64,000 bases of DNA, taken from positions 21,366 to 85,365 of the forward strand of contig CAVVCH010000054.1 in assembly GCA_963746605.1 (NCBI GenBank). Reading direction: 5' to 3'. Positions 16,610 through 59,925 of the stretch are shown here, piece after piece; positions within the stretch are counted from its first letter, which is position 1, and each line of letters opens with the position of its first letter. Source of the DNA: an uncultured delta proteobacterium (GTDB taxonomy: Bacteria; Desulfobacterota; RBG-13-43-22). The notes beneath the pieces are model-generated. The model worked only from the letters and a program-made list of their open reading frames with translations, had not been told where the DNA came from and made no database searches. Position numbers and translations under genes: made by a program.

Positions 16610-17500
16610 GGTTCTGGCAAAAATCAGCCCCTCCCCACACCACCTAGCATGCGGGTCCGCACTAGGCGGTTCCCAGAGGCTACCGAGCCGTAGCCGGGTA
16701 ATGGATGTTTACCCACTGATCTTTGACAGACAGCAAACCTTGATCCTTGAGTCACGCCAAGGCGTGATCATGCCTGTCTGGGTGGCCAGCGTGCGTGAGA
16801 GTCGCCAGGGGCCTTTCCGGCTCATCCCGACCGAGATAGCGGTCCGCAGGTGTTCATTGGGATTGGGCTTATCGGCAACGCGCCGGCCACTCGCTCCCCC
16901 GGACGGGTTTATGGCGATGGTCGAGCTTACCGGGCCTTTTCCCTGCTCTGGGTTCGGTCCTTCGTTCGTTGATGGCGAACTACTATGACCTCGGCTGACT
17001 CCTGCCCGGTCAATCGACATGTTTCCAGGCCGGATGCTGTCCAATGTTAACTGGACCGCCTGCCGAACAGGTCTCCCCGGACTCAGTTCAGTACTCCCTC
17101 AGGGGTTAAGACGTGATCTGTCGTTACACAACCGCGGCATTTACCGCGTCTCCTAAACCCGGGGCTTTGTCATGTCGTGCTGACTTACCCGGAGACTTGG
17201 CCTTGTATGCCATTTCTGTACCCCGGATCAGGTCCGGGGCAGGCTTGGCTCATAGCTTTGCGCTCCAGCTTCCTTCGGACGATCCCTCGCGAGCATCGCC
17301 CTTGCTTTCGGCTAGTATTTATGTTCCTGTCTTACGACAGTACGGGTTTACATCAGGGGACTTTCACCCCATAAGATCACGCCCATGCCGGGCGTACACT
17401 AGAATCGTTCGCACCGGATCGGCACCGCTACCCCGGGACAAAACGCGGACATGAAGCTGGTCTCGTGACAAAATGGTCGAGGCTACCGATGGAAAGGATT
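16610..17500. other. ORF-free GC-rich segment of about 0.9 kb; candidate structured RNA or decayed element
   Basis: Six-frame ORFs here give only Pro/Arg/Ser/Gly-rich non-protein-like translations; many local hairpins, e.g. CCCCGGA-ucagg-UCCGGGG at 17221-17239. Confidence 0.2.
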
Positions 17501-48946: not shown

Positions 48947-49051
48947 GATGAAAAAAAAGATGAACCCGGAGGGTTTGGTTAAAGAGGCAGCTTTTTGGGC
49001 CAAAATGAAGGCAGCCGCAAAGGAAGGTCCCAAGACAGTGTGCCACAAGTG
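48947..49051 (+). CDS. Small ORF (34 aa) with strong RBS upstream of the radical SAM/SPASM gene; candidate precursor or leader peptide
   Basis: AAGGAGGTG 9 nt upstream of ATG; MKKKMNPEGLVKEAAFWAKMKAAAKEGPKTVCHK then TGA-AAA-GGG-TGA-AAA-TCG-TAA; hairpin TTGCTG-GTT-CAGCAA at 49073-49087. Confidence 0.35.
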
Positions 49052-49195
49052 AAAAGGGTGAAAATCGTAAACGTTGCTGGTTCAGCAATGGAATCAAAGG
49101 GCGGATACGGGGGGAGGCGCAAAAGGAGCATTGCCAACCTGCCCTTTATCCGCCCTTCTCCTTATTACCCCTAAACTCAAAAAAAGGCCTGAACG

Positions 49196-50242
49196 ATGCA
49201 GACCGACCACCCCTTTGATTTCTTTTTTCAATGGCATCTGACCGAAAAATGCAATCTTCATTGCCTCCACTGCTATCAGGAAAAAGGGCCATTGGAGGAA
49301 TTCACTTTTTCTGAAATCAAAGAAACCCTGAACGAGATATCGCTCATGCTGGAAGACTGGTCGAAGAGCTATGACCTGGCTTTCCAGACCAGCATCAATG
49401 TTACCGGAGGGGAGCCTTTCTTACGACCCGACCTGTTCCCCATTCTCGAGGAAATGATTCAACACGGGTATGACCTTTATCTCCTGTCCAACGGGACCCT
49501 CCTGGACCGGGATAAGGCCCGCCGTCTAAGCCGCCTGCCGGTTCGGGGAGTCCAGGTCAGCCTGGAAGGGCTGGAAAAGACCCATGAGGCCCTCCGGGGA
49601 AAAGGCAGTTTTGCCGGAGCGGTAAAAGGGATCGAGTACCTGGTGGAAGCCGGGATTCCGGTCACCATCAATACCACCTTATCCGAGATCAACCGGGAAC
49701 AGTTTTTGGAGATGATACCCTTGGCCCAGGCCTTGGGAGCCCAGCGGTTGGGGTTCTCCCGATTGATCCCCGCTGGCCAGGGAGCCCTGCTTTCTTCCCA
49801 ACTGTTAAAACCGGATCAAGTCCGAGGACTTTACCAGGAAATCCATTCCCTCGCTCCCCGCGGATTGGAACTGGTCAGCGGTGATCCGCTTTATCGGCAA
49901 CTGGATTCAGGCAATGATCAGGAAGACCTGGGAAACATCCCTCGCGGTGGGTGCGCGGCCGGGGTGTCCGGTTTGACCTTGATGGCCGACGGAACGGTGA
50001 CTCCCTGCCGCCGGTTACCGGTCCCCCTCGGGAACGTGCGCCAGGACTCCCTGCGTGAACTTTGGAGCAATTCTCCGGTGTTGGAAATGCTGCGGGATAA
50101 AACCAGTTACCAAGGAAAATGCGGCCGCTGCCGCAGATGGGCCGCCTGCCGGGGATGCCGCGCCATGGCCTACGCCTTTTCCCGGGCCGGCGGCCACAAC
50201 CATCTGGTCGACGAAGACCCGCAATGTTTTTTGGAGCCCTAG
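49196..50242 (+). CDS. Radical SAM/SPASM domain protein (AhbD/NirJ/PqqE-like)
   Basis: 348 aa; CNLHCLHC (CxxxCxxC) cluster, C-terminal Cys-rich SPASM region (GGCAAG...CGRCRRWAACRGC...DPQCF). Confidence 0.85.
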   Translation: MQTDHPFDFFFQWHLTEKCNLHCLHCYQEKGPLEEFTFSEIKETLNEISLMLEDWSKSYDLAFQTSINVTGGEPFLRPDLFPILEEMIQHGYDLYLLSNGTLLDRDKARRLSRLPVRGVQVSLEGLEKTHEALRGKGSFAGAVKGIEYLVEAGIPVTINTTLSEINREQFLEMIPLAQALGAQRLGFSRLIPAGQGALLSSQLLKPDQVRGLYQEIHSLAPRGLELVSGDPLYRQLDSGNDQEDLGNIPRGGCAAGVSGLTLMADGTVTPCRRLPVPLGNVRQDSLRELWSNSPVLEMLRDKTSYQGKCGRCRRWAACRGCRAMAYAFSRAGGHNHLVDEDPQCFLEP

Positions 50243-50271
50243 ATGCCCTTTCAATCGGAGGTAACGAGCCG

Positions 50272-52438
50272 ATGAACTCCCCCAGCGATCCATACCCCCC
50301 GGGATGCGCTTTCCCCCTCGGGGCCACTGTCGGCCCGGAGGGCGTCAATTTTAGCGTCTATTCCAAAAACGCAGACAAAGTGGACCTGCTTCTGTTCGAC
50401 CGGGCCGATGACGCTCGACCGGCCCGGATCATTTCCCTGGAACCAAATAAAAACCGGACTTATTTTTACTGGCATGTCTTCGTCCCCGGCCTGTCTTGCG
50501 GACAGATTTACGGCTATCGTGTTTTTGGCCCTTATGAACCGGAAAAAGGGCTGCGTTTTGACGGCCAAAAGGTTCTGCTGGATCCCTACGGAAAGGCCTT
50601 GGCAACGCCGCTTAATTACAGCCGTCTGGCCGCCGGCCTTCCGGGAGACAACACGGCCACGGCCATGAAGAGCGTGGTGGCGGATTTGAGCCTTTACGAT
50701 TGGGAGGGGGACGCGCCGCTTCGACGCCCTTTTTCCAATACCATTATCTATGAACTGCACGTCCGGGGGTTTACCCGTCATCCCAGTTCGGGTGTGCCAG
50801 CCGGATAAGCGGGGCACCTACGCCGGGTTGATCGAGAAAATCCCCTACCTGCAGGATTTGGGAATCACCGCCGTGGAACTGCTACCGGTCTTTCAATTCG
50901 ATGAACAGGATGCGCCCCCCGACTTCAAGAACTACTGGGGCTACAGCCCGGTCAGCTTCTTCGCCCCTCACGGGAGTTACTGCTCCTGCCGAGACCCCCT
51001 CGGTCCGCTGGATGAATTCCGGGATATGGTCAAGGCCTTGCACCGATTTGGGATCGAGGTGATCCTGGACGTGGTCTTTAACCACACGACCGAAGGGCAC
51101 GAATTCGGTCCGACGCTTTGCTACCGCGGTTTTGAAAACCGGGCCTACTACATCCTGGAAGCCGCCACCGGCCGGTACGCCAACTATTCGGGCTGCGGCA
51201 ATACCCTCAATTCCGGCAACTCCATCGTCCGACGGATGATCATCGATAGTTTGCACCACTGGGTCAAGGAGATGCACGTGGACGGCTTCCGTTTTGATCT
51301 GGCCGCCATTCTCTCCCGAGATGAAACCGGCCAACCGCTCGCCAATCCCCCGGTCCTCTGGGATATTGAATCCGACCCGGTCCTGGCCGGCACCAAGCTG
51401 ATTGCCGAGGCCTGGGACGCAGCCGGCCTTTACCAGGTAGGCAGCTTTGTCGGAGAAAGTTGGAAGGAATGGAACGGCAAGTTTCGGGATGATGTGCGGG
51501 GTTTCATCAAAGGCGATAGCGGCGTCGTCCCCTCGGTGGCCTCCCGTCTGTTGGGCAGCCCGGACCTTTATGGCGGGCAGGAACGCGAGCCGGAACAAAG
51601 CATCAATTTCATCACCTGCCACGACGGTTTCACCCTGAATGACCTGGTCTCTTACAACACCAAACACAACGAGGCCAACGGCGAGGAAAACCGCGACGGG
51701 ACCGACGACAACCTGAGTTGGAACTGCGGGGTGGAAGGTCCCACGGATAACCCGGAAATCGAAAAGCTCCGCAACCGCCAGGTAAAAAACTTTATGACCA
51801 TCACCCTTTTGGCCCTCGGGGCCCCCATGCTGCTCATGGGCGATGAGGTCCGGAGGACCCAGCAAGGCAACAACAACGCTTACTGCCAGGACAACGAAAT
51901 CAGTTGGTTTGATTGGGACCTGCTGGCTAAACACGGGGACCTGCACCGTTTCGTCAAGAACCTGATTGCGGCCCGCCTGCACACGGACACTTTCACTCCC
52001 AGCCAGGAGTTAACCTTGAGCCAGATCATCAGGCAGGCCCGTATTCATTGGCACGGGGTCAAACTCAGCCAACCCGATTGGAGTCCGGATTCCCATAGCC
52101 TGGCCTTGACGGTCTGGAGCCGCCGAGGCCGGCTGTTGACCCACATCATGTTGAACGCCTACTGGGGGCCCCTGGCCTTTGAACTACCGCCCGTTCAGAA
52201 CCTGCAGGGCAAGGCCTGGCACCGGTGGATCGACACCGCGCTGGATCCCCCCGAGGACATCGGCACTTGGGCTCACGCCCCTGCCGTTTCCGGATCTACC
52301 TACCCGGTGCAGCCCCGATCCATCGTGGTCCTGATGGAACGGATTGCGAAAGGATGTCGCCTAACAAGGAAAATGGACGATAATACGATATCTTTTGAAC
52401 GGTCCGTGACAGGATCGTCATTCCCGCAGCGCTTCTGA
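50272..52438 (+). CDS. glgX: Glycogen debranching enzyme GlgX, one frameshift near 50790-50810
   Basis: ORF 50119..50808 from MNSPSD holds the N-terminal domain; ORF 50750..52438 holds the GH13 catalytic domain (GFRFDLA, EAWD). Confidence 0.8.
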
Positions 52439-53582: not shown

Positions 53583-54587
53583 ATGATCTTGGCAGGAGAC
53601 ATCGGCGGGACCAACACCCGCCTGGCGGTGGTGAACATGGACCAGGGCCGGCTACGAATCGAGGCCAAGGAAATTTTTCCTAGCCGGGAACAGCCCAGCC
53701 TGGATACGGCCGTTCGCAAATTTATCGCTCACCATCCGGCACCCTTCGCTTCCGTGGTTCTAGGGGTGGCCGGGCCAATCCGGATGGGCCGTTGCGAGGC
53801 CACCAATCTCCCCTGGATCGTAGATGCCCGCTCGCTGGCCCGGGAACTGCACCAGGAACGGGTCGAGCTGATCAACGACCTGGAGGCCTGCGCCCATGGA
53901 TTGGCGGAATTGGGGCCGGACGATCTCGTGGTCCTAAACGAAGGGGAGGCCGCGGCCCGAGGTAATGCCGGTCTGCTGGCGGCCGGTACCGGATTAGGGG
54001 AAGCCGGCCTTTACTGGGATGGGGGGAAATTCCACCCTTTTGCCTCTGAAGGCGGGCACGTGGACTTTGCCGCGCGCAATCATCTGGAGATAGAGCTGTT
54101 GGATTACCTGCTAAGAAGGTATTCCCGGGTCAGCGTGGAACGGGTGGTGTCCGGACCCGGCCTGTATAATATCTACCAATTTCTCCGGGATACCGGCCGG
54201 GGCGAGGAGACACCGGTCCTGGCCGAGGAAATCCGCCGGAGTGACCCGCCGGCGGTAATCACCCGGTGGGCACTGGAAGGAGGCGATCCTCTCTGCGAGG
54301 ATGCCCTGAGCCTCTTTGTCAACTGCTACGGAGCGGAAGCCGGGAACCTGGCCATGAAGTTGCTGGCCACCGGCGGGGTCTATTTGGGTGGAGGGATTGC
54401 GCCCCGGATTATCCCCCGATTGCAGCACCCGGATTTTATGAACGCCTTTACGTCCAAGGGGAGGCTGAACCCGCTGTTGCAGCAGATACCCGTGCGCGTC
54501 ATCCTCAACCCGGACACCGCGCTGCTCGGAGCGGCCCGCTACGCCTTGGACAAGGATCCGGCGGCCACAAACGACCGGATTAGTTGA
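53583..54587 (+). CDS. glk: Glucokinase
   Basis: 334 aa; GDIGGTNTRLA ATP-binding N-terminus, GGHVDFA motif. Confidence 0.9.
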   Translation: MILAGDIGGTNTRLAVVNMDQGRLRIEAKEIFPSREQPSLDTAVRKFIAHHPAPFASVVLGVAGPIRMGRCEATNLPWIVDARSLARELHQERVELINDLEACAHGLAELGPDDLVVLNEGEAAARGNAGLLAAGTGLGEAGLYWDGGKFHPFASEGGHVDFAARNHLEIELLDYLLRRYSRVSVERVVSGPGLYNIYQFLRDTGRGEETPVLAEEIRRSDPPAVITRWALEGGDPLCEDALSLFVNCYGAEAGNLAMKLLATGGVYLGGGIAPRIIPRLQHPDFMNAFTSKGRLNPLLQQIPVRVILNPDTALLGAARYALDKDPAATNDRIS

Positions 54588-56181
54588 TAGCCGCGCTGTC
54601 CTCCAGGAAACAAAAGGGGTCTCGGTCCTGGAATATATTCAGGCCCATTCCGTAGGCCACGGCCAGGCATCCGCCGCAGACCGGACGGAGGGGACAGGCG
54701 CGGCAAGCCGCGGTGCCGGCCCGGTAGCGCCGCGCCGGTTCGGAATCGTACAGTTCCAGCAGGCTGTTTTCCAGGATATTGCCCAGGGGAGAGGGCAACT
54801 TCCGGCAGGCGTGGACTTCGCCGTCGGGCAGGACGGTGATAAAATTGAAGGCCGCGCTGCAGCCGAATCCGGCGCAGCCCCCGAAGAGGGGGATCCCCTG
54901 GCGATGATGGAGGATATTGATCAGGTTGTCCTTGATCCCCATGACCGGGTTTTTTTCCGCCGTCCGCAGGTAGGCAGCCAGAAAAGCGGCATATTCCTGG
55001 CGGTCGGGGACTTGCAGGTTAGCCCCTTCCCCCACCTGGGAGAGGCGATTAAAAAAGAAGCTGTCGGCCTTCCCCTGAAGCCGTTCGGCCAAGGGGATCA
55101 CTTGGTCCATATTATCCCGGGTCAGCGTCAGCATGACCATGGAATAGAGGTTCAATTCCTTAAGGATCCCCAGGAATTCCATTACCCGGTCAAAATGACC
55201 CGGACCACGGATCCAATCGTTGTGTTCCCGCAGCCCTTCCAAACTGACCTGAAAAAAATGGGGTTCCTGGATGGCCCGGATTTCCAGCAGTCGTTCGCGG
55301 GAGGTGGGGTTCCCCAGGATGGCCGTGCCGAACCCCAATCCCGCTGCCGCCCGGTATAGTTCGTTGAATCGAGGATGAAGCAGGGGATTGCCGCCCGTGA
55401 AACTGACCTGACCTTGAACCCGCTTTTCCCGACAGAATCGATCCAGGTCGTTTAGAATTTTCATTTCCTGCTCCCAGTTCAAGGGAGGGCGCGGACTGCG
55501 GTCGTAACAATGTTTGCAGTGGAGGTCGCAGGCTTGGGTGATGTGCCACTGAAGGGTAAACGTCGGGGACTCCAGAAATTCCCGGCCCCGGATGGCACTC
55601 TGGGGATAAGCCGCCGGGTCTCTTCGGATCTTCGACCGGGGGGGAATCAGAAGTCCCTCCCGCGCGGCCTGCTGCAGAACATTCTCAAGGGCCGCCTGCG
55701 GGACCCCGCCGGAGGCGGCGGCGGATTCCAAGGCCACTTCCTCCAGCACAATCTTCAGCGCTAACAGGTCTTCTTCCCGGGCCGCCCGGGACAGGACCTC
55801 TCGCGTCTCCGCATTCCGCCAGACCAGGACCAGCTCCTCACCCGGCTCCGGAGCAATAGGCTTCGCCTTCCCGGCGGCCTGGACCAGGTGAACCAGGTTT
55901 TTATAAGAAAATTGCATCAGCCGCAGAGCGGGGTTGACGATGACCCGGTCGGGGTCCGGATCACTCTCCGCCGACCCCAAACTCGCCTGATAAAGTCCCC
56001 ATTCCAAGCGGGTCAGATCAAAGAGAAAAGGGGGGCAGCCACTCGCCAAGGAAGTCTCCGCCAAAAATCCGGGGAAATCCTCGGGGGATCTCCCGGCCTC
56101 CACTTGGGCTTTAAAGGTTTCCCAGTCGGCGGGCCTTATGTAAGAACGGCTTACCGGATAAATCTTTTCGAGGGTTTCCAT
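54580..56181 (-). CDS. Radical SAM/SPASM domain protein with about 200-aa N-terminal extension (paralog of 49196..50242)
   Basis: 533 aa; CDLHCKHC cluster, SPASM region (GGCAGFGCSAA...CRACPLRPVCGGC...DPFCF); shared blocks with the first gene such as QWH(L/I)T and (F/V)QVSLEGL. Confidence 0.85.
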   Translation of the reverse strand: METLEKIYPVSRSYIRPADWETFKAQVEAGRSPEDFPGFLAETSLASGCPPFLFDLTRLEWGLYQASLGSAESDPDPDRVIVNPALRLMQFSYKNLVHLVQAAGKAKPIAPEPGEELVLVWRNAETREVLSRAAREEDLLALKIVLEEVALESAAASGGVPQAALENVLQQAAREGLLIPPRSKIRRDPAAYPQSAIRGREFLESPTFTLQWHITQACDLHCKHCYDRSPRPPLNWEQEMKILNDLDRFCREKRVQGQVSFTGGNPLLHPRFNELYRAAAGLGFGTAILGNPTSRERLLEIRAIQEPHFFQVSLEGLREHNDWIRGPGHFDRVMEFLGILKELNLYSMVMLTLTRDNMDQVIPLAERLQGKADSFFFNRLSQVGEGANLQVPDRQEYAAFLAAYLRTAEKNPVMGIKDNLINILHHRQGIPLFGGCAGFGCSAAFNFITVLPDGEVHACRKLPSPLGNILENSLLELYDSEPARRYRAGTAACRACPLRPVCGGCLAVAYGMGLNIFQDRDPFCFLEDSAAIN

Positions 56182-56244
56182 ATCATCATTTTAGCACTGT
56201 TTGCGGATCCATTCGTATGAAAATAATAAATTAGGTCCCAGCTT

Positions 56245-56424
56245 GTCATCCTGAGCCTTTCGCCTGCGGTCATCCTGAGCCGAAGCGAAGGATCTGGATT
56301 CTCGGCTCGGAAAGACTCGGAAGGATCTCGGTATTCGGCTCAGGGACTCGCGAAGGATCTCGTCTTTCGAGCCCAAAGCTCGCCAAAGGGATTCTTCAGT
56401 TGCTTCGCTCCTTCAGAATGACAG
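56245..56424. repeat. Cluster of family A repeat units
   Basis: GTCATCCTGAGCC... GTCATCCTGAGCCGAAGCGAAGGATCT ... CTTCAGAATGACAG. Confidence 0.6.
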
Positions 56425-56602
56425 TTGCTGGTTATTTTCGAATCAAATAAAAGAGGCCGGAACAGATACGATCTCGGATCGTATTGGCCCCGGCCCCCGG
56501 AAGGACTGCCGGCGGATAAGCGCCGGCCTGCAATGGTTGGAAACATTTTGGTTAAACGGCTCTCTGATGGATCGGATAGCGCCACCGGCGCTATTTCTTT
56601 CC

Positions 56603-56735
56603 GCTTCAGGAGCTTGGCGCGGCGGGTTTCGTGTCGGTGCTACCTGCATCGGGTTTAGTCCCGCTTCAGGAGCTGCCGGCTTTTTTCTCGGTTTGGGTGC
56701 TACCTGCATCCGGTTTGGACCCGCCTCAAGCGCTC
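56603..56735. repeat. Tandem repeat, 60-bp period, about 2.2 units
   Basis: Unit GCTTCAGGAGC...GGTGCTACCTGCATCGGGTTT at 56603 and 56663, partial third unit at 56723; about 75% identity between units. Confidence 0.6.
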
Positions 56736-56833
56736 TTGCCATTGGCGCACCCGGAAACCCCTAAACTGGAGCCGGCAATCAGGCTGGCAATACTCAACCC
56801 GGCCAACATCTTTTTGAGCTGGTTCATTTCCAT
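56726..56833 (-). CDS. Small ORF (35 aa) with signal-peptide/lipobox-like sequence and strong RBS, upstream of the second radical SAM/SPASM gene
   Basis: GGAAGGAGGTG 7 nt upstream of ATG; MEMNQLKKMLAGLSIASLIAGSSLGVSGCANGKSA then TGA; the same frame continues through the 60-bp repeats with an in-frame TGA in each unit. Confidence 0.35.
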   Translation of the reverse strand: MEMNQLKKMLAGLSIASLIAGSSLGVSGCANGKSA

Positions 56834-57010
56834 GCGTACTCACCTCCTTCCCTGAGTAATTATTGAAACTGATCGTATTTTCAAAATCTATAGAAAAAAG
56901 CTATCAATAATGAATTTGCCTGTCAAGTTTCAATCCATGCTCAATGACAAAATAACCTGCTTATTGGTGAAAAATACAGGGTTTACCCCATAAGGATCAA
57001 CCATGGTAGT

Positions 57011-57302: not shown

Positions 57303-57698
57303 CTAAAGTTTTGAGCCTCTTGAAGATCTTCGGTCAGCAGATACCTGACATTGAGCTGTTTGAGCAGCGGAAACGATCAGGGCATCCCACCACGAAAGTT
57401 TATTCCGATCCTGTAACTCCCAAGCTCCCTTGATCACCTGCTTATCAACGGGAAGGGGATTCCAGGTCAGCAAAGCGTTTACATCTTCACGAGCCGTTGA
57501 AACCCTCAGGCCCGGTTGGAGCTTACCGGTTACGGTCACATAGAATTCCTGCAGAACTTGATAACTTATCCGCCCACATTTTTTATCCCAGAGAAAGGTC
57601 ATCCAAGCCAGGGCCTGCTTCTGTTTAACCGGTTCCGAACTATCTCGGATATAAACCAGTACATTGGTATCCACAAAAAATCTGCTATCTTCGTTCAT
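57303..57698 (-). CDS. vapC: Type II toxin, PIN domain (VapC family)
   Basis: MNEDSRFFVDTNVLVYI ... WWDALIVSAA; start set at internal Met 57698. Confidence 0.7.
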   Translation of the reverse strand: MNEDSRFFVDTNVLVYIRDSSEPVKQKQALAWMTFLWDKKCGRISYQVLQEFYVTVTGKLQPGLRVSTAREDVNALLTWNPLPVDKQVIKGAWELQDRNKLSWWDALIVSAAQTAQCQVSADRRSSRGSKL

Positions 57699-57918
57699 AC
57701 AGGTCCTGGCGTGGTGGATATTTTTCTTTCGCTTTTTTAAGTGCCTGAGGGGGTTGAGCCAGGTATCGATCTCCGGCCTTTTTATAGGTTTGGTCGACCA
57801 GCATTTTTTCTTTGAGCATTTGCCCCACCAGGCGGGAAACGCTGGTTTCCAGTTCCGCCGCCCTAATCCTTGCCCACCGGGCAACCTCTTCATCCATGGT
57901 AATCGTTACATTTTTCAT
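57685..57918 (-). CDS. vapB: Type II antitoxin (RHH-type)
   Basis: 77 aa; MKNVTITMDEEVARWARIRAAELETSVSRLV; overlaps the toxin start. Confidence 0.65.
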   Translation of the reverse strand: MKNVTITMDEEVARWARIRAAELETSVSRLVGQMLKEKMLVDQTYKKAGDRYLAQPPQALKKAKEKYPPRQDLYERR

Positions 57919-58002: not shown

Positions 58003-59271
58003 ATGGAACCCTTATTTGAATCCGGTCGGATAAACGGCCTGACCTTAAAAAACCGTTTCGTGCGCTCGGCCACCTGGGAGGGAATGGCGGCCGAGGATGG
58101 GTCGGTCACCCCGCCCTTGATCGATCTGTACCGTACTCTGGCCGACGGGGGGGTGGGTCTGATCATCACCGGCCACAGCTTTGTCCACCCGTCGGGGAAG
58201 CATTCGCCCCGTCAGCTCGGCAGTTACGCGGACGACCTGATACCCGGACTGCAACGATTGACCGAGGCCGTCCATGAGCGGAACGGACGGATCGTCTTGC
58301 AACTGAATTATGGGGGGGCTTATCTCTCCCGGTCCCGAGTGGACCAAATGACCCCGGAGGATTTCCGGGCGGTCGGCGCGGCCTTTGCCCTGGCCGCCCG
58401 CCGGGCGCAGCAGGCCGGGTTCGACGGAGTTCAGATCCTGGCCGCCCACGGCTTCTTTCTGAGCCAGCTCCTCTGTCCGCGTTACAATCCCCGAACCGAT
58501 GAATACGGCGGTTCCATCGAAAACCGGGCCCGGGCTCTGATGGAGGTGGTAGGGGCCGTCCGGGAACAGATTAAACCCGAATACCCCCTCCTGGTGAAAA
58601 TCAACAGCCGGGACATGATTGAGGATGGACTCCAGTTGGAGGAATCCATTGAGGTGGGCCTAAGGCTGGAGGCGGCCGGCGTCGATGCCCTGGAGATCAG
58701 CGGCGGCCTGTTGAACCTGCCCAACCTGCTCCAGGATAGAAACACCGAGGAGGAGGACTTTCCCTTTTTTCAAAACGAAGCCCGGGCCTTCAAGCAGCAG
58801 CTTCGAATCCCGGTGATTCTGGTGGGGGGGATCCGGTCTTTTTCCACAGCAAGGCGCCTCCTGAAAGCAGGGACCGCCGATTTTATCGCCCTCTGCCGGC
58901 CCTTTATCCGGGAGCCGGATTTGATCAACCGCTGGCAAAGGGGCGAACGGCAAAAAACCGCCTGCCTTTCCTGCAACAACTGCGTGGAGCAGTTGAAGCA
59001 GGGGAGGGGTCTGGTCTGCAGCCCCCTGGAACCTGAGGCAAAAGAAACCTTTTTTGCCCAGAAAACGGAATCCCTCCCGGCCGGGCCACCCTTTCCGGCC
59101 AATATTTCCTACCAGGTCTCCTTCGGTCTAGAAGAATGGGATGGAATCTTTCTCCCGGTGATCAAGATTCAGATGGTCCGGGAAGGACAAATCCTCAATG
59201 AGGGCGTATCCTTCCCGGCCGGGATCGACGTTTTTGAAAAAATATGCCGATTGATCAAGAATCTAATTTAG
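58003..59271 (+). CDS. NADH:flavin oxidoreductase (Old Yellow Enzyme family)
   Basis: 422 aa; OYE-like FMN-binding TIM barrel (RSATWEG..., HGFFLSQLL, GGIRS) plus C-terminal extension. Confidence 0.8.
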   Translation: MEPLFESGRINGLTLKNRFVRSATWEGMAAEDGSVTPPLIDLYRTLADGGVGLIITGHSFVHPSGKHSPRQLGSYADDLIPGLQRLTEAVHERNGRIVLQLNYGGAYLSRSRVDQMTPEDFRAVGAAFALAARRAQQAGFDGVQILAAHGFFLSQLLCPRYNPRTDEYGGSIENRARALMEVVGAVREQIKPEYPLLVKINSRDMIEDGLQLEESIEVGLRLEAAGVDALEISGGLLNLPNLLQDRNTEEEDFPFFQNEARAFKQQLRIPVILVGGIRSFSTARRLLKAGTADFIALCRPFIREPDLINRWQRGERQKTACLSCNNCVEQLKQGRGLVCSPLEPEAKETFFAQKTESLPAGPPFPANISYQVSFGLEEWDGIFLPVIKIQMVREGQILNEGVSFPAGIDVFEKICRLIKNLI

Positions 59272-59444: not shown

Positions 59445-59925
59445 TTGAAAAACTTGCAGGAAAGAAAAAGAATTCGACTGTCACGAAGCGCGTATGAGGA
59501 GGGCCAGGCCTTCTCCATTACCATAACCACAGCAGAAAGGTATCCATGGTTTAAAATCCATGGACAACTTGCAGACACGAGCATATCCCTGATCTCTGAC
59601 CCTGTCCCAAGAACGGGAGGCCGTGGTTTTTGCTTGGTGCATTATGCCGGATCATATCCACCTGCTCTTGCAGGACAATAATATCCTTGATCTGGTCCGT
59701 TTGCTCAAAGGAAGGCTTACCCCTGAAGCCCGTGGACTGGAACCTGGACGAGCCTTGTGGCAACGCAGCTTTTATGATCACGCCTTACGAAAAGAGGAAG
59801 CACTAGAGGATGTTGCCCGTTACATTTGGGAGAATCCGGTCCGCGCCGGAATAGTTGGTCGAGCTTCGGCCTATCCCTGGTCTGGTTCTCTGGTTTGGCC
59901 CGATTGGAAGGAATTCGTCGATTGA
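59445..59925 (+). pseudogene. REP-associated tyrosine transposase (RAYT, IS200-like Y1), frameshifted
   Basis: ORF 59445..59681 (...GQAFSITITTAERYPWF) and ORF 59623..59925 (WCIMPDHIHLLL HuH motif; WQRSFYDH catalytic Tyr region); flanked by REP doublets. Confidence 0.7.

What the first reader, a model, noticed from the sequence alone, without database searches (positions are those of the whole stretch)
54580..56860. Radical SAM/SPASM gene with N-terminal extension, preceded by a lipobox-like small ORF whose frame runs through 60-bp tandem repeats with an in-frame TGA in every unit
A 35-codon ORF with a near-perfect Shine-Dalgarno site sits upstream of the 533-aa radical SAM/SPASM gene. Past its TGA stop the same frame reads GGSKPDAGSTQTEKKAGSS-TGA-SGTKPDAGSTDTKPAAPSS-TGA-SGKK-TAG. 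The repeat period (60 bp) is a multiple of three, so the TGA falls at the same codon position in each unit. This could be a repeat-containing precursor peptide for the radical SAM enzyme, either with UGA recoding (selenocysteine, as in selenopeptide-type radical SAM systems) or as a secreted repeat protein broken by indels (a +1 frame reads PEAG(P/L)N(R/P)MQVAP repeats). No SECIS hairpin was identified and no sel genes are in the window, so recoding is the weaker reading.
Basis: partly seen in the sequence, partly recalled or inferred. Interest (0 to 1): 0.65.

Follow-up and report, generated by a model that had tools for sequence, protein, structure and literature searches.

The report
SbtA/SbtM selenopeptide (selenooxazole RiPP) locus
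This is an ordinary member of a known two-gene system, in which a small exported peptide carrying three selenocysteines (each written as UGA and followed by its own insertion hairpin) lies next to the radical SAM enzyme SbtM, which is known to turn Cys/Sec into thio(seleno)oxazole rings.

Summary
The 533-aa radical SAM/SPASM gene (54580-56181, -) is SbtM: NCBIfam TIGR04082 scores 716.6 bits against a cutoff of 350, over its full length. The '35-codon lipobox ORF' is the leader of its substrate SbtA (TIGR04081, 41.4 bits, cutoff 30.5).

The true sbtA gene is 80 codons (56591-56833, -) and contains three in-frame UGAs. In 53 of 80 homologous loci the same frame runs through 1-4 UGAs in [S/G/A]-U-[S/G/T]-G motifs. 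Some homologues carry Cys codons at those positions instead. A near-identical strain from another sample has the same three UGAs.

A covariance model of the downstream hairpin was built from other loci only. Its three best hits in the whole 64-kb window fall right after the three UGAs. The hairpin resembles the E. coli fdhF SECIS. It follows 90 of 133 UGA codons but only 4 of 32 equivalent Cys codons.

The SbtM N-terminal extension is a TglI/HvfC-like peptide-recognition domain.

The system is already curated and biochemically characterised, so interest is low. Sel genes could not be checked: none lie in the window.

In passing, a second, uncurated candidate selenopeptide plus radical SAM pair lies at 48948-50242.

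The parts
54580..56181 (-). sbtM: thio(seleno)oxazole-forming radical SAM/SPASM maturase, 533 aa
   Evidence: NCBIfam TIGR04082 scores 716.6 bits (cutoff 350), covering profile positions 1-516 of 516. There are 3041 homologues at E<1e-30, many named 'selenobiotic family peptide radical SAM maturase' or SbtM.
55567..56181 (-). SbtM N-terminal extension (residues ~1-205): TglI/HvfC (DUF2063)-like peptide-recognition domain containing an RRE-type strand-helix module
55081..55542 (-). Radical SAM core (residues 214-367) with the C218-x3-C222-x2-C225 motif
   Evidence: Pfam PF04055, 60.4 bits. C218, C222 and C225 are invariant in alignment A1.
54607..54861 (-). SPASM auxiliary Fe-S cluster domain (residues ~441-525)
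   Evidence: Pfam PF13186, 37.8 bits. TIGR04085 covers residues 441-524. Invariant Cys at 436, 441, 459, 493, 496, 502, 505 and 524.
56591..56833 (-). sbtA, full precursor gene: 80 codons with three UGA (Sec) codons, TAG stop at 56591-56593
   Evidence: Translation. Homologous read-through ORFs occur in 53 of 80 loci. The gene is identical in the independent assembly L085. Against L001, codons 36-76 show 11 synonymous and 8 nonsynonymous changes with the frame kept.
56841..56848 (-). Shine-Dalgarno AGGAGGTG, 7 nt upstream of the sbtA ATG
   Evidence: Read directly from the sequence.
56747..56833 (-). SbtA leader, a lipoprotein-type signal peptide (residues 1-28) ending in the lipobox V-S-G-C29
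   Evidence: TIGR04081 scores 41.4 bits (cutoff 30.5) on residues 1-26. A lipobox-like L/V-x-[GAS]-C is present in 42 of 53 homologues. This rests on the pattern only; no signal-peptide predictor was run.
56726..56728 (-). UGA 1 (codon 36), context K-S-A-U-G-G
   Evidence: The same position is UGA in L001, L081, L082, L084 and L085.
56692..56713 (-). SECIS-type hairpin 1: GGAUGC-AGGUA-GCACCC, 14 nt after UGA 1, with one A.C mismatch
   Evidence: Covariance model R1: 18.7 bits, E=0.0084, second-best hit in the window. The hairpin is the minimum-energy fold of the 22-mer, -4.9 kcal/mol. Folding the 51 nt after the UGA on its own is not better than shuffled sequence, z=0.32.
56666..56668 (-). UGA 2 (codon 56), context G-S-S-U-S-G
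   Evidence: SSUSG is the commonest motif in the family, 23 instances.
56632..56653 (-). SECIS-type hairpin 2: CGAUGC-AGGUA-GCACCG, 14 nt after UGA 2, with one A.C mismatch
   Evidence: R1: 16.9 bits, E=0.026, third-best hit in the window. The hairpin is part of the minimum-energy fold of the 51-nt context; -4.0 kcal/mol for the 22-mer. Relatives L081 and L084 have the perfect CGGUGC/GCACCG stem.
56606..56608 (-). UGA 3 (codon 76), context P-S-S-U-S-G-K-K-stop
56574..56595 (-). SECIS-type hairpin 3: AUAGCGCC-GGU-GGCGCUAU, 11 nt after UGA 3, spanning the TAG stop and running into the 3' UTR
   Evidence: R1: 24.0 bits, E=2.7e-4, best hit in the window. 8-bp stem, -11.8 kcal/mol. The same hairpin occurs in L001 and L081-L084.
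56594..56734 (-). About 2.3 copies of a 60-nt repeat; each full unit holds one Sec motif and its SECIS hairpin
   Evidence: Repeat families D1 and D3, spacing 60 nt. Close relatives have one extra short unit, giving 4 UGAs and 91 aa.
56440..56498 (-). Terminator-like hairpin (56452-56498) with a U-rich tail, about 95 nt after the sbtA stop
   Evidence: Free energy -31.9 kcal/mol, z=-5.26, 0 of 200 shuffles fold as well. The simple terminator scan did not list it.
56182..56439 (-). Rest of the sbtA-sbtM spacer: dispersed-repeat insertions and a weak promoter-like site (56220-56249) upstream of sbtM
   Evidence: GTCATCCTGAGC occurs twice here and 5 times in the window, against 0.21 expected. A 33-nt unit occurs about 3 times. 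The promoter-like site matches 9 of 12 positions.

Best explanation
The locus is a two-gene SbtA/SbtM cassette for a ribosomally made, selenocysteine-containing peptide natural product (RiPP).

sbtA (56591-56833, minus strand) encodes an 80-residue precursor. It has a 28-residue lipoprotein-type signal or leader peptide and a lipobox Cys29. After that comes a Gly/Ser/Thr/Lys-rich core with three selenocysteines in the motifs SA-U-GG, SS-U-SG and SS-U-SG.

Each Sec is written as UGA. Each UGA is followed 11-14 nt downstream by a short hairpin with a G-G-U loop. This is a bacterial SECIS of the fdhF type, which would recruit SelB carrying Sec-tRNA(Sec). The 60-nt repeat is the unit 'Sec motif plus its own SECIS', which is why the UGA falls at the same codon position in every unit. 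The conserved peptide motif D/G-A-G-S-T is mostly the translation of the hairpin.

SbtM (54580-56181) would hold the precursor through its N-terminal TglI/HvfC-like recognition domain. It would then use its radical SAM and SPASM Fe-S clusters to oxidise each Sec and cyclise it with the carbonyl of the preceding residue, giving a selenooxazole. This is the reaction published for a Geobacter-type SbtM.

Shown here: family membership of both genes; conserved read-through frame; Sec/Cys alternation; UGA-linked hairpins; fold of the N-terminal domain.

Inferred: actual Sec insertion in this organism; the chemistry, taken from the characterised homologue; and export with lipidation at Cys29 by the general lipoprotein pathway. 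That last step would explain why no protease or transporter gene is conserved nearby.
For: - Family membership. SbtM matches TIGR04082 at 716.6 bits (cutoff 350). The SbtA leader matches TIGR04081 at 41.4 bits (cutoff 30.5). JGI already names the 35-aa truncated ORF 'radical SAM modification target selenobiotic family peptide'.
- Comparative evidence. 53 of 80 SbtM loci have an upstream same-strand ORF with this leader. It reads through 1-4 in-frame UGAs (two UGAs in 18, three in 23). The residue before U is S (72), G (30) or A (18).
- Sec/Cys alternation. Six precursors carry Cys in place of Sec throughout. L072 mixes TGA and TGT within its own repeats.
- Conservation of this gene. L001 (SbtM 62% identical) has UGAs at the same codons 36, 56 and 76, with 11 synonymous and 8 nonsynonymous changes after the first UGA. 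Close relatives have 4 UGAs, all in frame. An independent assembly has the identical gene.
- SECIS enrichment. 103 of 133 distinct UGA contexts have a hairpin of at least 5 bp, against 56.5 +/- 6 for random genomic 45-mers and 25.5 +/- 4.7 for shuffles.
- SECIS covariation. The score is 0.433 against 0.181 in shuffles, with 0 of 500 shuffles as high. These hairpins were pre-selected for pairing.
- SECIS in the window. A model built without the window or its close relatives places its top three hits in the window exactly after the three UGAs. The next best hit scores only 11.9 bits.
- Natural control. Hairpins with a G[G/U]U-type loop follow 90 of 133 UGAs but only 4 of 32 equivalent Cys codons (p=1.2e-8).
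- Resemblance to a proven SECIS. The E. coli fdhF element GGUUGC-AGGUCU-GCACC, 11 nt after its UGA, has the same stem and the same loop start.
- Normal stop usage. TGA ends 11 of 30 long ORFs in the window, so the genetic code is standard.
- Self-contained cassette. No other gene is conserved next to sbtAM across 80 loci.
- Published chemistry and family: PMC9204691, PMC11002830 and PMC13188914, which lists TIGR04081 as a selenoprotein family.
Against: - No selA, selB or selD homologue and no tRNA of any kind lies in the 64-kb window. The rest of the genome could not be examined.
- The two internal hairpins carry an A.C mismatch and are weak (-4.9 and -4.0 kcal/mol). The 51 nt after UGA 1 fold no better than shuffled sequence (z=0.32).
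- The model R1 scores the genuine E. coli fdhF SECIS at only 4.9 bits. It therefore describes this family's hairpin, not SECIS elements in general. Rfam gave no supporting match.
- The hairpin covariation set was pre-selected for pairing.
- The published motif is G-G-U-G or S-G-U-G, whereas Ser or Ala precedes Sec here. The chemistry is extrapolated to that context.
- The assembly has at least one frameshifting indel elsewhere, compared with a sister strain.
- The lipoprotein route rests on a sequence pattern only.
Confidence: 0.9

Rival explanations
1. The first UGA is a true stop. The product would be only the 35-residue lipobox peptide. The downstream repeats would be untranslated RNA, for example regulatory or terminator hairpins.
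For: Gene callers annotate a 35-aa ORF. TGA is a normal stop elsewhere in the window. No sel genes are in the window. The internal hairpins are weak.
Against: - A 35-aa product would lack any Cys or Sec apart from the lipobox Cys, leaving SbtM without a substrate residue.
- The frame is preserved through all UGAs in 50 or more loci, despite differences in repeat number.
- All-Cys homologues encode the same repeated motif as one uninterrupted ORF.
- Synonymous changes accumulate after UGA 1.
- The last hairpin sits 11 nt after a UGA, as in fdhF.
Confidence: 0.04
2. This is a secreted or lipoprotein repeat gene broken by indels or nonsense mutations, either a pseudogene or a sequencing artefact.
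For: The window's assembly carries a 1-nt insertion that splits a glycogen-debranching-type gene, compared with a sister strain. A 99-aa ORF exists in the other frame.
Against: - An independent assembly from another sample has the identical gene with three TGAs.
- The same TGA positions occur in L001, which is only 62% identical in SbtM.
- The leader frame, not the +1 frame, is the one conserved across 53 loci.
- Only TGA interrupts the frame, never TAA or TAG, and always inside the same motif.
Confidence: 0.01
3. The UGAs are read through, but not (or not always) as selenocysteine. They might be read as Cys or Trp by near-cognate suppression. Alternatively the outcome depends on selenium: termination when Se is scarce, giving a truncated lipopeptide, and the full tri-Sec peptide when Se is available.
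For: SbtM accepts both Cys and Sec substrates in vitro (PMC9204691). Cys-type precursors exist naturally. The weak internal hairpins could make insertion inefficient.
Against: The SECIS-type hairpins are tied specifically to UGA codons and not to Cys codons. They resemble the fdhF element bound by SelB. If Cys were the intended residue, a Cys codon would be simpler, as in the all-Cys homologues.
Confidence: 0.05

Closest known systems
SbtA/SbtM thio(seleno)oxazole RiPP system (NCBIfam TIGR04081/TIGR04082; 'selenobiotic' family of Haft & Basu 2011; SbtM characterised by Lewis et al. 2021, as summarised in PMC9204691 and PMC11002830)
   Same: - Both genes exceed the curated family cutoffs.
- The precursor lies upstream of the maturase on the same strand.
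- There are several in-frame UGAs in small-residue motifs, each with a downstream SECIS.
- The maturase has an N-terminal domain, a radical SAM core and a SPASM domain.
   Different: - Sec here follows Ser or Ala (SA-U-GG, SS-U-SG), not Gly as in the published GGUG/SGUG motif. In my survey SSUSG is in fact the commonest motif.
- There are three Sec residues rather than the 'at least two' or '2' quoted.
- The host is an uncultured lineage whose nearest named relatives are Deltaproteobacteria and Desulfobacca MAGs.
- The sbtA-sbtM spacer is unusually long (409 nt) and carries repeat insertions.
- The family is much wider than the 'Geobacter and Desulfobacteria' stated in the literature. It also occurs in Nitrospirota, Brocadiia, Planctomycetota and Acidobacteria MAGs.
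E. coli fdhF SECIS (the SelB-binding hairpin)
   Same: The stem GGUGC/GCACC and a loop beginning A-G-G-U. It lies 11 nt after the UGA, against 11-14 nt here.
   Different: The window's hairpins lack the bulged U. Two of them have an A.C mismatch. The family model scores fdhF at only 4.9 bits. SelB binding was not tested.
TglI / MbnC / HvfC (DUF2063) partner proteins of DUF692 enzymes (TglHI, MbnBC)
   Different: In SbtM the recognition domain is fused to a radical SAM/SPASM enzyme. It does not partner a DUF692 di- or tri-iron enzyme, and the catalytic chemistry is unrelated.
AhbD / NirJ cofactor-biosynthesis radical SAM/SPASM enzymes
   Same: A shared radical SAM plus SPASM core.
   Different: Scores are 68.8 and 63.2 bits against cutoffs of 500 and 515. 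Those enzymes also lack the N-terminal recognition domain.

Membership tests
SbtM (TIGR04082) | Full-length match to the family HMM above the curated cutoff | tested here: met
   716.6 bits against a cutoff of 350; residues 7-525 cover profile positions 1-516 of 516.
SbtM (TIGR04082) | Radical SAM CxxxCxxC motif and a SPASM Cys-rich domain | tested here: met
   C218, C222 and C225 plus eight invariant C-terminal Cys residues. Pfam PF04055 and PF13186.
SbtM (TIGR04082) | N-terminal domain of about 200 aa for peptide recognition | tested here: met
SbtM (TIGR04082) | Adjacent SbtA-type precursor | tested here: met
   sbtA lies 409 nt upstream on the same strand. The same arrangement occurs in 53 of 80 loci.
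SbtM (TIGR04082) | Converts X-Cys/Sec to a thio(seleno)oxazole | not testable with these tools
   Known only for the characterised homologue (PMC9204691).
SbtA (TIGR04081) | Leader matches the family HMM above the cutoff | tested here: met
   41.4 bits against a cutoff of 30.5; residues 1-26.
SbtA (TIGR04081) | In-frame UGA (or Cys) within a small-residue motif, usually repeated | tested here: met
   Three UGAs in SA-U-GG, SS-U-SG and SS-U-SG.
Bacterial selenoprotein gene | UGA position conserved, with Cys in some homologues | tested here: met
   There are six all-Cys precursors, and L072 mixes TGA and TGT.
Bacterial selenoprotein gene | SECIS hairpin shortly 3' of each UGA | tested here: met
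   The three best R1 hits in the window. Caveat: hairpins 1 and 2 have an A.C mismatch and low stability.
Bacterial selenoprotein gene | Genome encodes selA, selB, selC (tRNA-Sec) and selD | not testable with these tools
   None in the 64-kb window: ARAGORN found 0 tRNAs, and tblastn with E. coli SelA/B/D gave no hit. The rest of the genome is not available.
Bacterial lipoprotein (SPase II substrate) | Positively charged n-region, hydrophobic h-region and a lipobox [LVI][ASTVI][GAS]C | tested here: inconclusive
   The pattern is present: K7, K8, then LAGLSIASLIAGSSLG, then V-S-G-C29. It is conserved in 42 of 53 homologues. No predictor or experiment was available.
AhbD/NirJ heme-biosynthesis radical SAM enzymes | HMM score above the curated cutoff | tested here: not met
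   68.8 against 500, and 63.2 against 515.

The most novel reading that the evidence does not exclude
The SbtA 'leader' is a real lipoprotein signal peptide. After SbtM makes three selenooxazoles in the cytoplasm, the peptide would be exported by Sec, lipidated at Cys29 and cleaved by signal peptidase II. The mature product would then be a membrane-anchored, roughly 52-residue tri-selenooxazole lipopeptide, possibly a metal- or chalcogen-binding or redox module, rather than a diffusible 'bacteriocin'. General lipoprotein machinery would replace the dedicated protease and transporter, which would explain why sbtA-sbtM is a self-contained two-gene cassette. SbtM itself would be a fusion of an MbnC/TglI-type recognition domain with a radical SAM enzyme.
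Probability: 0.35. Interest if true: 0.5.

Novelty: already known. Interest (0 to 1): 0.22.

Why it matters
For the finding itself, little is new. It is a textbook member of a system that is already curated and biochemically characterised.

Its practical value is as an annotation correction. Public gene calls stop sbtA at codon 35, whereas the real product is an 80-residue peptide with three selenocysteines.

The comparative survey adds modest detail:
- S-S-U-S-G, not G-G-U-G, is the commonest Sec context.
- Each 60-nt repeat unit carries its own SECIS.
- The conserved G-A-G-S/G-T peptide motif is largely an imprint of that RNA hairpin.
- The family extends well beyond Geobacter and Desulfobacteria.
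- The SbtM N-terminal domain is TglI/HvfC-like.
- Most leaders look like lipoprotein signal peptides.

The more interesting lead is the neighbouring, uncurated candidate selenopeptide plus radical SAM pair at 48948-50242.

Tried and rejected
- Tandem Repeats Finder did not report the 60-bp repeat, which has too few copies. The repeat finder did report it.
- Rfam gave nothing relevant in either mode: gathering or E-value mode on 56400-56860.
- Folding single sequences after each UGA gave weak z-scores (0.32, -1.31, -1.65). Comparative data were needed.
- The family hairpin model R1 scored the true E. coli fdhF SECIS at only 4.9 bits. It cannot be presented as a general SECIS detector. The resemblance to fdhF rests on direct comparison of the two sequences.
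- The contig look-up for the exact SbtM protein failed. A sister strain was reached through the aldolase gene instead.
- Haft & Basu 2011 and Lewis et al. 2021 are not held in the library. The chemistry is cited from secondary sources.
- Alternative genetic code was rejected: TGA ends 11 of 30 long ORFs.
- The +1-frame repeat ORF was rejected as a shadow frame.
- A search for conserved neighbour genes found only antisense shadow ORFs inside sbtM.
- tblastn with E. coli SelA, SelB and SelD found nothing in the window.

Full report
**Observation.**
- The radical SAM/SPASM gene is 54580..56181, 533 aa. It has Pfam Radical_SAM and SPASM domains.
- A 409-nt spacer separates it from a small ORF upstream, 56726..56833. 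That ORF has AGGAGGTG 7 nt before its ATG.
- Read past its TGA, the frame gives MEMNQLKKMLAGLSIASLIAGSSLGVSGCANGKSA-U-GGSKPDAGSTQTEKKAGSS-U-SGTKPDAGSTDTKPAAPSS-U-SGKK-TAG. That is 80 codons with three in-frame TGAs, at codons 36, 56 and 76.
- The 60-nt periodicity is real, although it has too few copies for Tandem Repeats Finder to report.

**Identity.**
- The enzyme is SbtM: NCBIfam TIGR04082 scores 716.6 bits against a cutoff of 350, across the whole 516-position profile.
- The first 26 residues of the small ORF match TIGR04081, the SbtA precursor leader: 41.4 bits against a cutoff of 30.5.
- The family is large, with 3041 hits at E<1e-30, many already named 'selenobiotic family peptide radical SAM maturase' or SbtM.
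- The exact 35-aa truncated ORF is already named 'radical SAM modification target selenobiotic family peptide' by JGI.
- According to the literature held here, SbtM converts Gly-Cys or Gly-Sec into a thio(seleno)oxazole by two radical SAM oxidations. The precursor carries UGA codons with SECIS elements and probably at least two Sec residues (PMC9204691; PMC11002830). A 2026 review of prokaryotic selenoproteins lists TIGR04081 as a selenoprotein family with motif SGUG and 2 Sec (PMC13188914).

**Are the UGAs translated?** I fetched 80 SbtM loci from one genome per species. I then searched their six-frame translations, with TGA kept open, using the 35-aa leader.
- In 53 loci an ORF with this leader lies just upstream on the same strand.
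- It continues through in-frame UGAs: none in 6, one in 3, two in 18, three in 23 and four in 3.
- The UGAs always sit in [S/G/A]-U-[S/G/T/N]-G-type motifs. SSUSG is the commonest, so the window's motifs are typical.
- Six precursors have Cys at every such position. L072 has TGA, TGT and TGA in three successive repeats. This Sec/Cys alternation is the classical signature of a selenoprotein gene.
- L001 (SbtM 62% identical) has an 80-codon gene with UGAs at the same three codons. After the first UGA it shows 11 synonymous and 8 nonsynonymous differences and no frame change.
- Closer relatives (84-86% identical) carry one extra short repeat and four UGAs, still in frame.
- A near-identical strain assembled from a different sample has exactly the same 80-codon gene. 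This rules out an assembly artefact, even though the window has a frameshifting indel elsewhere relative to that strain.
- TGA ends 11 of 30 long ORFs in the window, so the genetic code is standard and the recoding is local.

**SECIS.**
- Of 133 distinct UGA contexts from these precursors, 103 have a hairpin of at least 5 bp starting 8-26 nt downstream (mostly 11 or 14 nt). The comparison values are 56.5 +/- 6 for random 45-mers from the same loci and 25.5 +/- 4.7 for shuffles. The loops are almost all AGGUA, AGGUG, GGU, GGUC or GUU.
- I aligned 80 such hairpins, leaving out the window and its close relatives. The stem covaries: for example GC 24, UA 22 and CG 15 at one pair, and GC 44 and AU 32 at another. 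The covariation score is 0.433 against 0.181 in shuffles. The caveat is that these hairpins were pre-selected for pairing.
- A covariance model from that alignment was run without filters over both strands of the whole window. Its three best hits are 56574-56595 (24.0 bits, E=2.7e-4), 56692-56713 (18.7 bits) and 56632-56653 (16.9 bits). Each lies 11-14 nt after one of the three UGAs. The fourth hit scores 11.9 bits and has no UGA nearby.
- A natural control comes from the Cys-type precursors. Hairpins with a G[G/U]U-type loop follow 90 of 133 UGAs but only 4 of 32 Cys codons at equivalent positions (Fisher p=1.2e-8). The hairpin therefore goes with UGA, not with the peptide. The recurrent peptide motif G/D-A-G-S/G-T is largely its translation.
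- The consensus GGUGC-AGGUR-GCACC matches the E. coli fdhF SECIS, GGU(U)GC-AGGUCU-GCACC, which lies 11 nt after its UGA.
- Weaknesses: the window's two internal hairpins have an A.C mismatch and are only -4.9 and -4.0 kcal/mol. For comparison, a relative's perfect version is -10.7, hairpin 3 is -11.8, and the fdhF minimal element is -5.7 on the same scale. Single-sequence folds are not significant. The family model scores fdhF itself at only 4.9 bits. Rfam offers no match.

**The N-terminal extension.** It is a feature of the whole family, covered by HMM positions 1-196.
- An AlphaFold2 model of residues 1-207 (pLDDT 83) shows a helical part. Three strands and three helices follow.
- NCBIfam gives a weak match to the HvfC RiPP maturation protein (E=3.4e-6).
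- The extension is therefore most likely the domain that binds the leader or precursor.

**Organisation and mechanism.**
- sbtA is followed by a strong hairpin with a U-rich tail (-31.9 kcal/mol, z=-5.3).
- The spacer also carries dispersed-repeat insertions and a weak promoter-like site before sbtM.
- Across 80 loci no other gene is conserved next to sbtA-sbtM.
- Most leaders (42 of 53) end in a lipobox-like L/V-x-[GAS]-C; here it is V-S-G-C29.
- My best account runs as follows. SelB and the SECIS hairpins direct insertion of three Sec residues. SbtM docks on the precursor through its N-terminal domain and forms a selenooxazole at each Sec. The peptide is then exported and, probably, lipidated and cleaved by the general lipoprotein pathway.
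- The first steps rest on sequence and comparative evidence obtained here. The chemistry is taken from the characterised homologue. The export and lipidation step is inference from a pattern.

**What could not be tested.** The window holds no tRNA and no SelA, SelB or SelD homologue. The rest of the genome is not available to me.

**Verdict.** The system is already known and curated, so interest is low (0.22). The useful correction is that public gene calls truncate sbtA at codon 35.

**Noticed in passing: a second candidate pair.** About 6.5 kb away lies a second small ORF (48948-49049, strong Shine-Dalgarno site). It reads MKKKMNPEGLVKEAAFWAKMKAAAKEGPKTVCHK-UGA-K-G-UGA-K-S-TAA. It precedes an unclassified 348-aa radical SAM/SPASM gene (49196-50242) that falls below every NCBIfam cutoff.
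- In 80 metagenomic loci of that enzyme family, peptide homologues were found by their N-terminal part only, giving 53 distinct ones. All 53 end in C-x-K followed by TGA. The codon three further on is TGA in 52 of 53.
- The codon after K-S is TAA in 26, TGA in 18 and TAG in 2, as expected for a real stop.
- Ser is encoded by both AGY and TCN codons.
- All 54 contexts have a hairpin GUUGCN-GGUC-N'GCAAC 9-12 nt after the second UGA, with a covarying closing pair and the same core as fdhF.
- The peptide is annotated 'hypothetical protein'. It matches no NCBIfam model even when read through. I did not find it in the 2026 selenoprotein review.
- This looks like a selenopeptide and maturase family absent from NCBIfam release 20 and the 2026 review, and it deserves its own follow-up.

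Noticed in passing
window 48948-50242 (+): small ORF 48948-49049, TGA 49050-49052, TGA 49059-49061, TAA 49068-49070, hairpin 49073-49089, rSAM/SPASM gene 49196-50242: A second candidate selenopeptide and maturase pair. The 34-codon ORF has a strong Shine-Dalgarno site and reads ...KTVCHK-UGA-KG-UGA-KS-stop. An fdhF-like hairpin (GUUGCUG-GUU-CAGCAAU) follows 11 nt after the second UGA. Next comes a 348-aa radical SAM/SPASM gene that falls below every NCBIfam cutoff (best AhbD, 180 against 500). Across metagenomic homologues, 53 of 53 peptides end in C-x-K-TGA and 52 of 53 have the second TGA. The following stop varies (TAA 26, TGA 18, TAG 2). All 54 contexts have the GGUC-loop hairpin. No NCBIfam model matches the peptide even when read through. 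It is annotated 'hypothetical protein', and I did not find it in the 2026 selenoprotein review. No Cys-for-Sec variants were seen. It is untested whether one SECIS can serve two UGAs 9 nt apart.
   Followed up: partly
L111:13-819 (-): A selD (selenophosphate synthetase) homologue, 40% identical to E. coli SelD over 270 aa. It lies immediately upstream of one member of the second radical SAM family. Seen in one locus only.
   Followed up: no
L013, L022, L027, L034, L039, L058, L072, L074 (SbtA genes): In a Nitrospirota-type subgroup of SbtA precursors the internal UGAs are followed by ...GGUGACGCUCAGCA... with no obvious hairpin. Only the last UGA has a strong UAGUGCGGUCGCACUA hairpin. How the internal UGAs are decoded there is unexplained.
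   Followed up: no
window 50119-52438 (+), indel near 50799: A glycogen-debranching-type gene (CBM_48/alpha-amylase) is a single 696-aa ORF in sister strains L085 and L082. In the window a 1-nt insertion splits it into two ORFs. This is either a pseudogene or an assembly indel, and it is a caution about the assembly's indel accuracy.
   Followed up: partly
window 16957-17296 (-): Group II intron domains: Rfam RF02001 at 93.2 bits and RF01998 at 62.7 bits.
   Followed up: no
window 48804, 57070, 59404, 59930, 59981, 63863, 63915; ORF 59623-59925 (+): Seven copies of a REP-like palindrome, GGGG(A/C)GGGGTTNATCCCC(T/G)CCC, against 0 expected. They lie near an ORF beginning MVFAWCIMPDHIHLLLQ, which looks like an IS200/REP-associated Y1 transposase by eye. 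A nearby ORF in relative L082 (2992-3549) carries Pfam Y1_Tnp, but its correspondence to this ORF was not checked.
   Followed up: partly
window 56245-56373, also 4639, 4734, 27304: A dispersed short repeat, GTCATCCTGAGC, occurs 5 times against 0.21 expected. Two copies lie inside the sbtA-sbtM spacer. Next to them is a 33-nt unit (GAAGGATCT...) repeated about 3 times. These insertions probably account for the unusually long spacer.
   Followed up: partly
window 57303-57918 (-): A PIN-domain (VapC-like) toxin gene with a small upstream partner ORF lies between sbtA and the OYE-type flavin oxidoreductase gene (58003-59271). The Pfam PIN assignment comes from syntenic relatives. NCBIfam gave no hit for the window's versions.
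   Followed up: no
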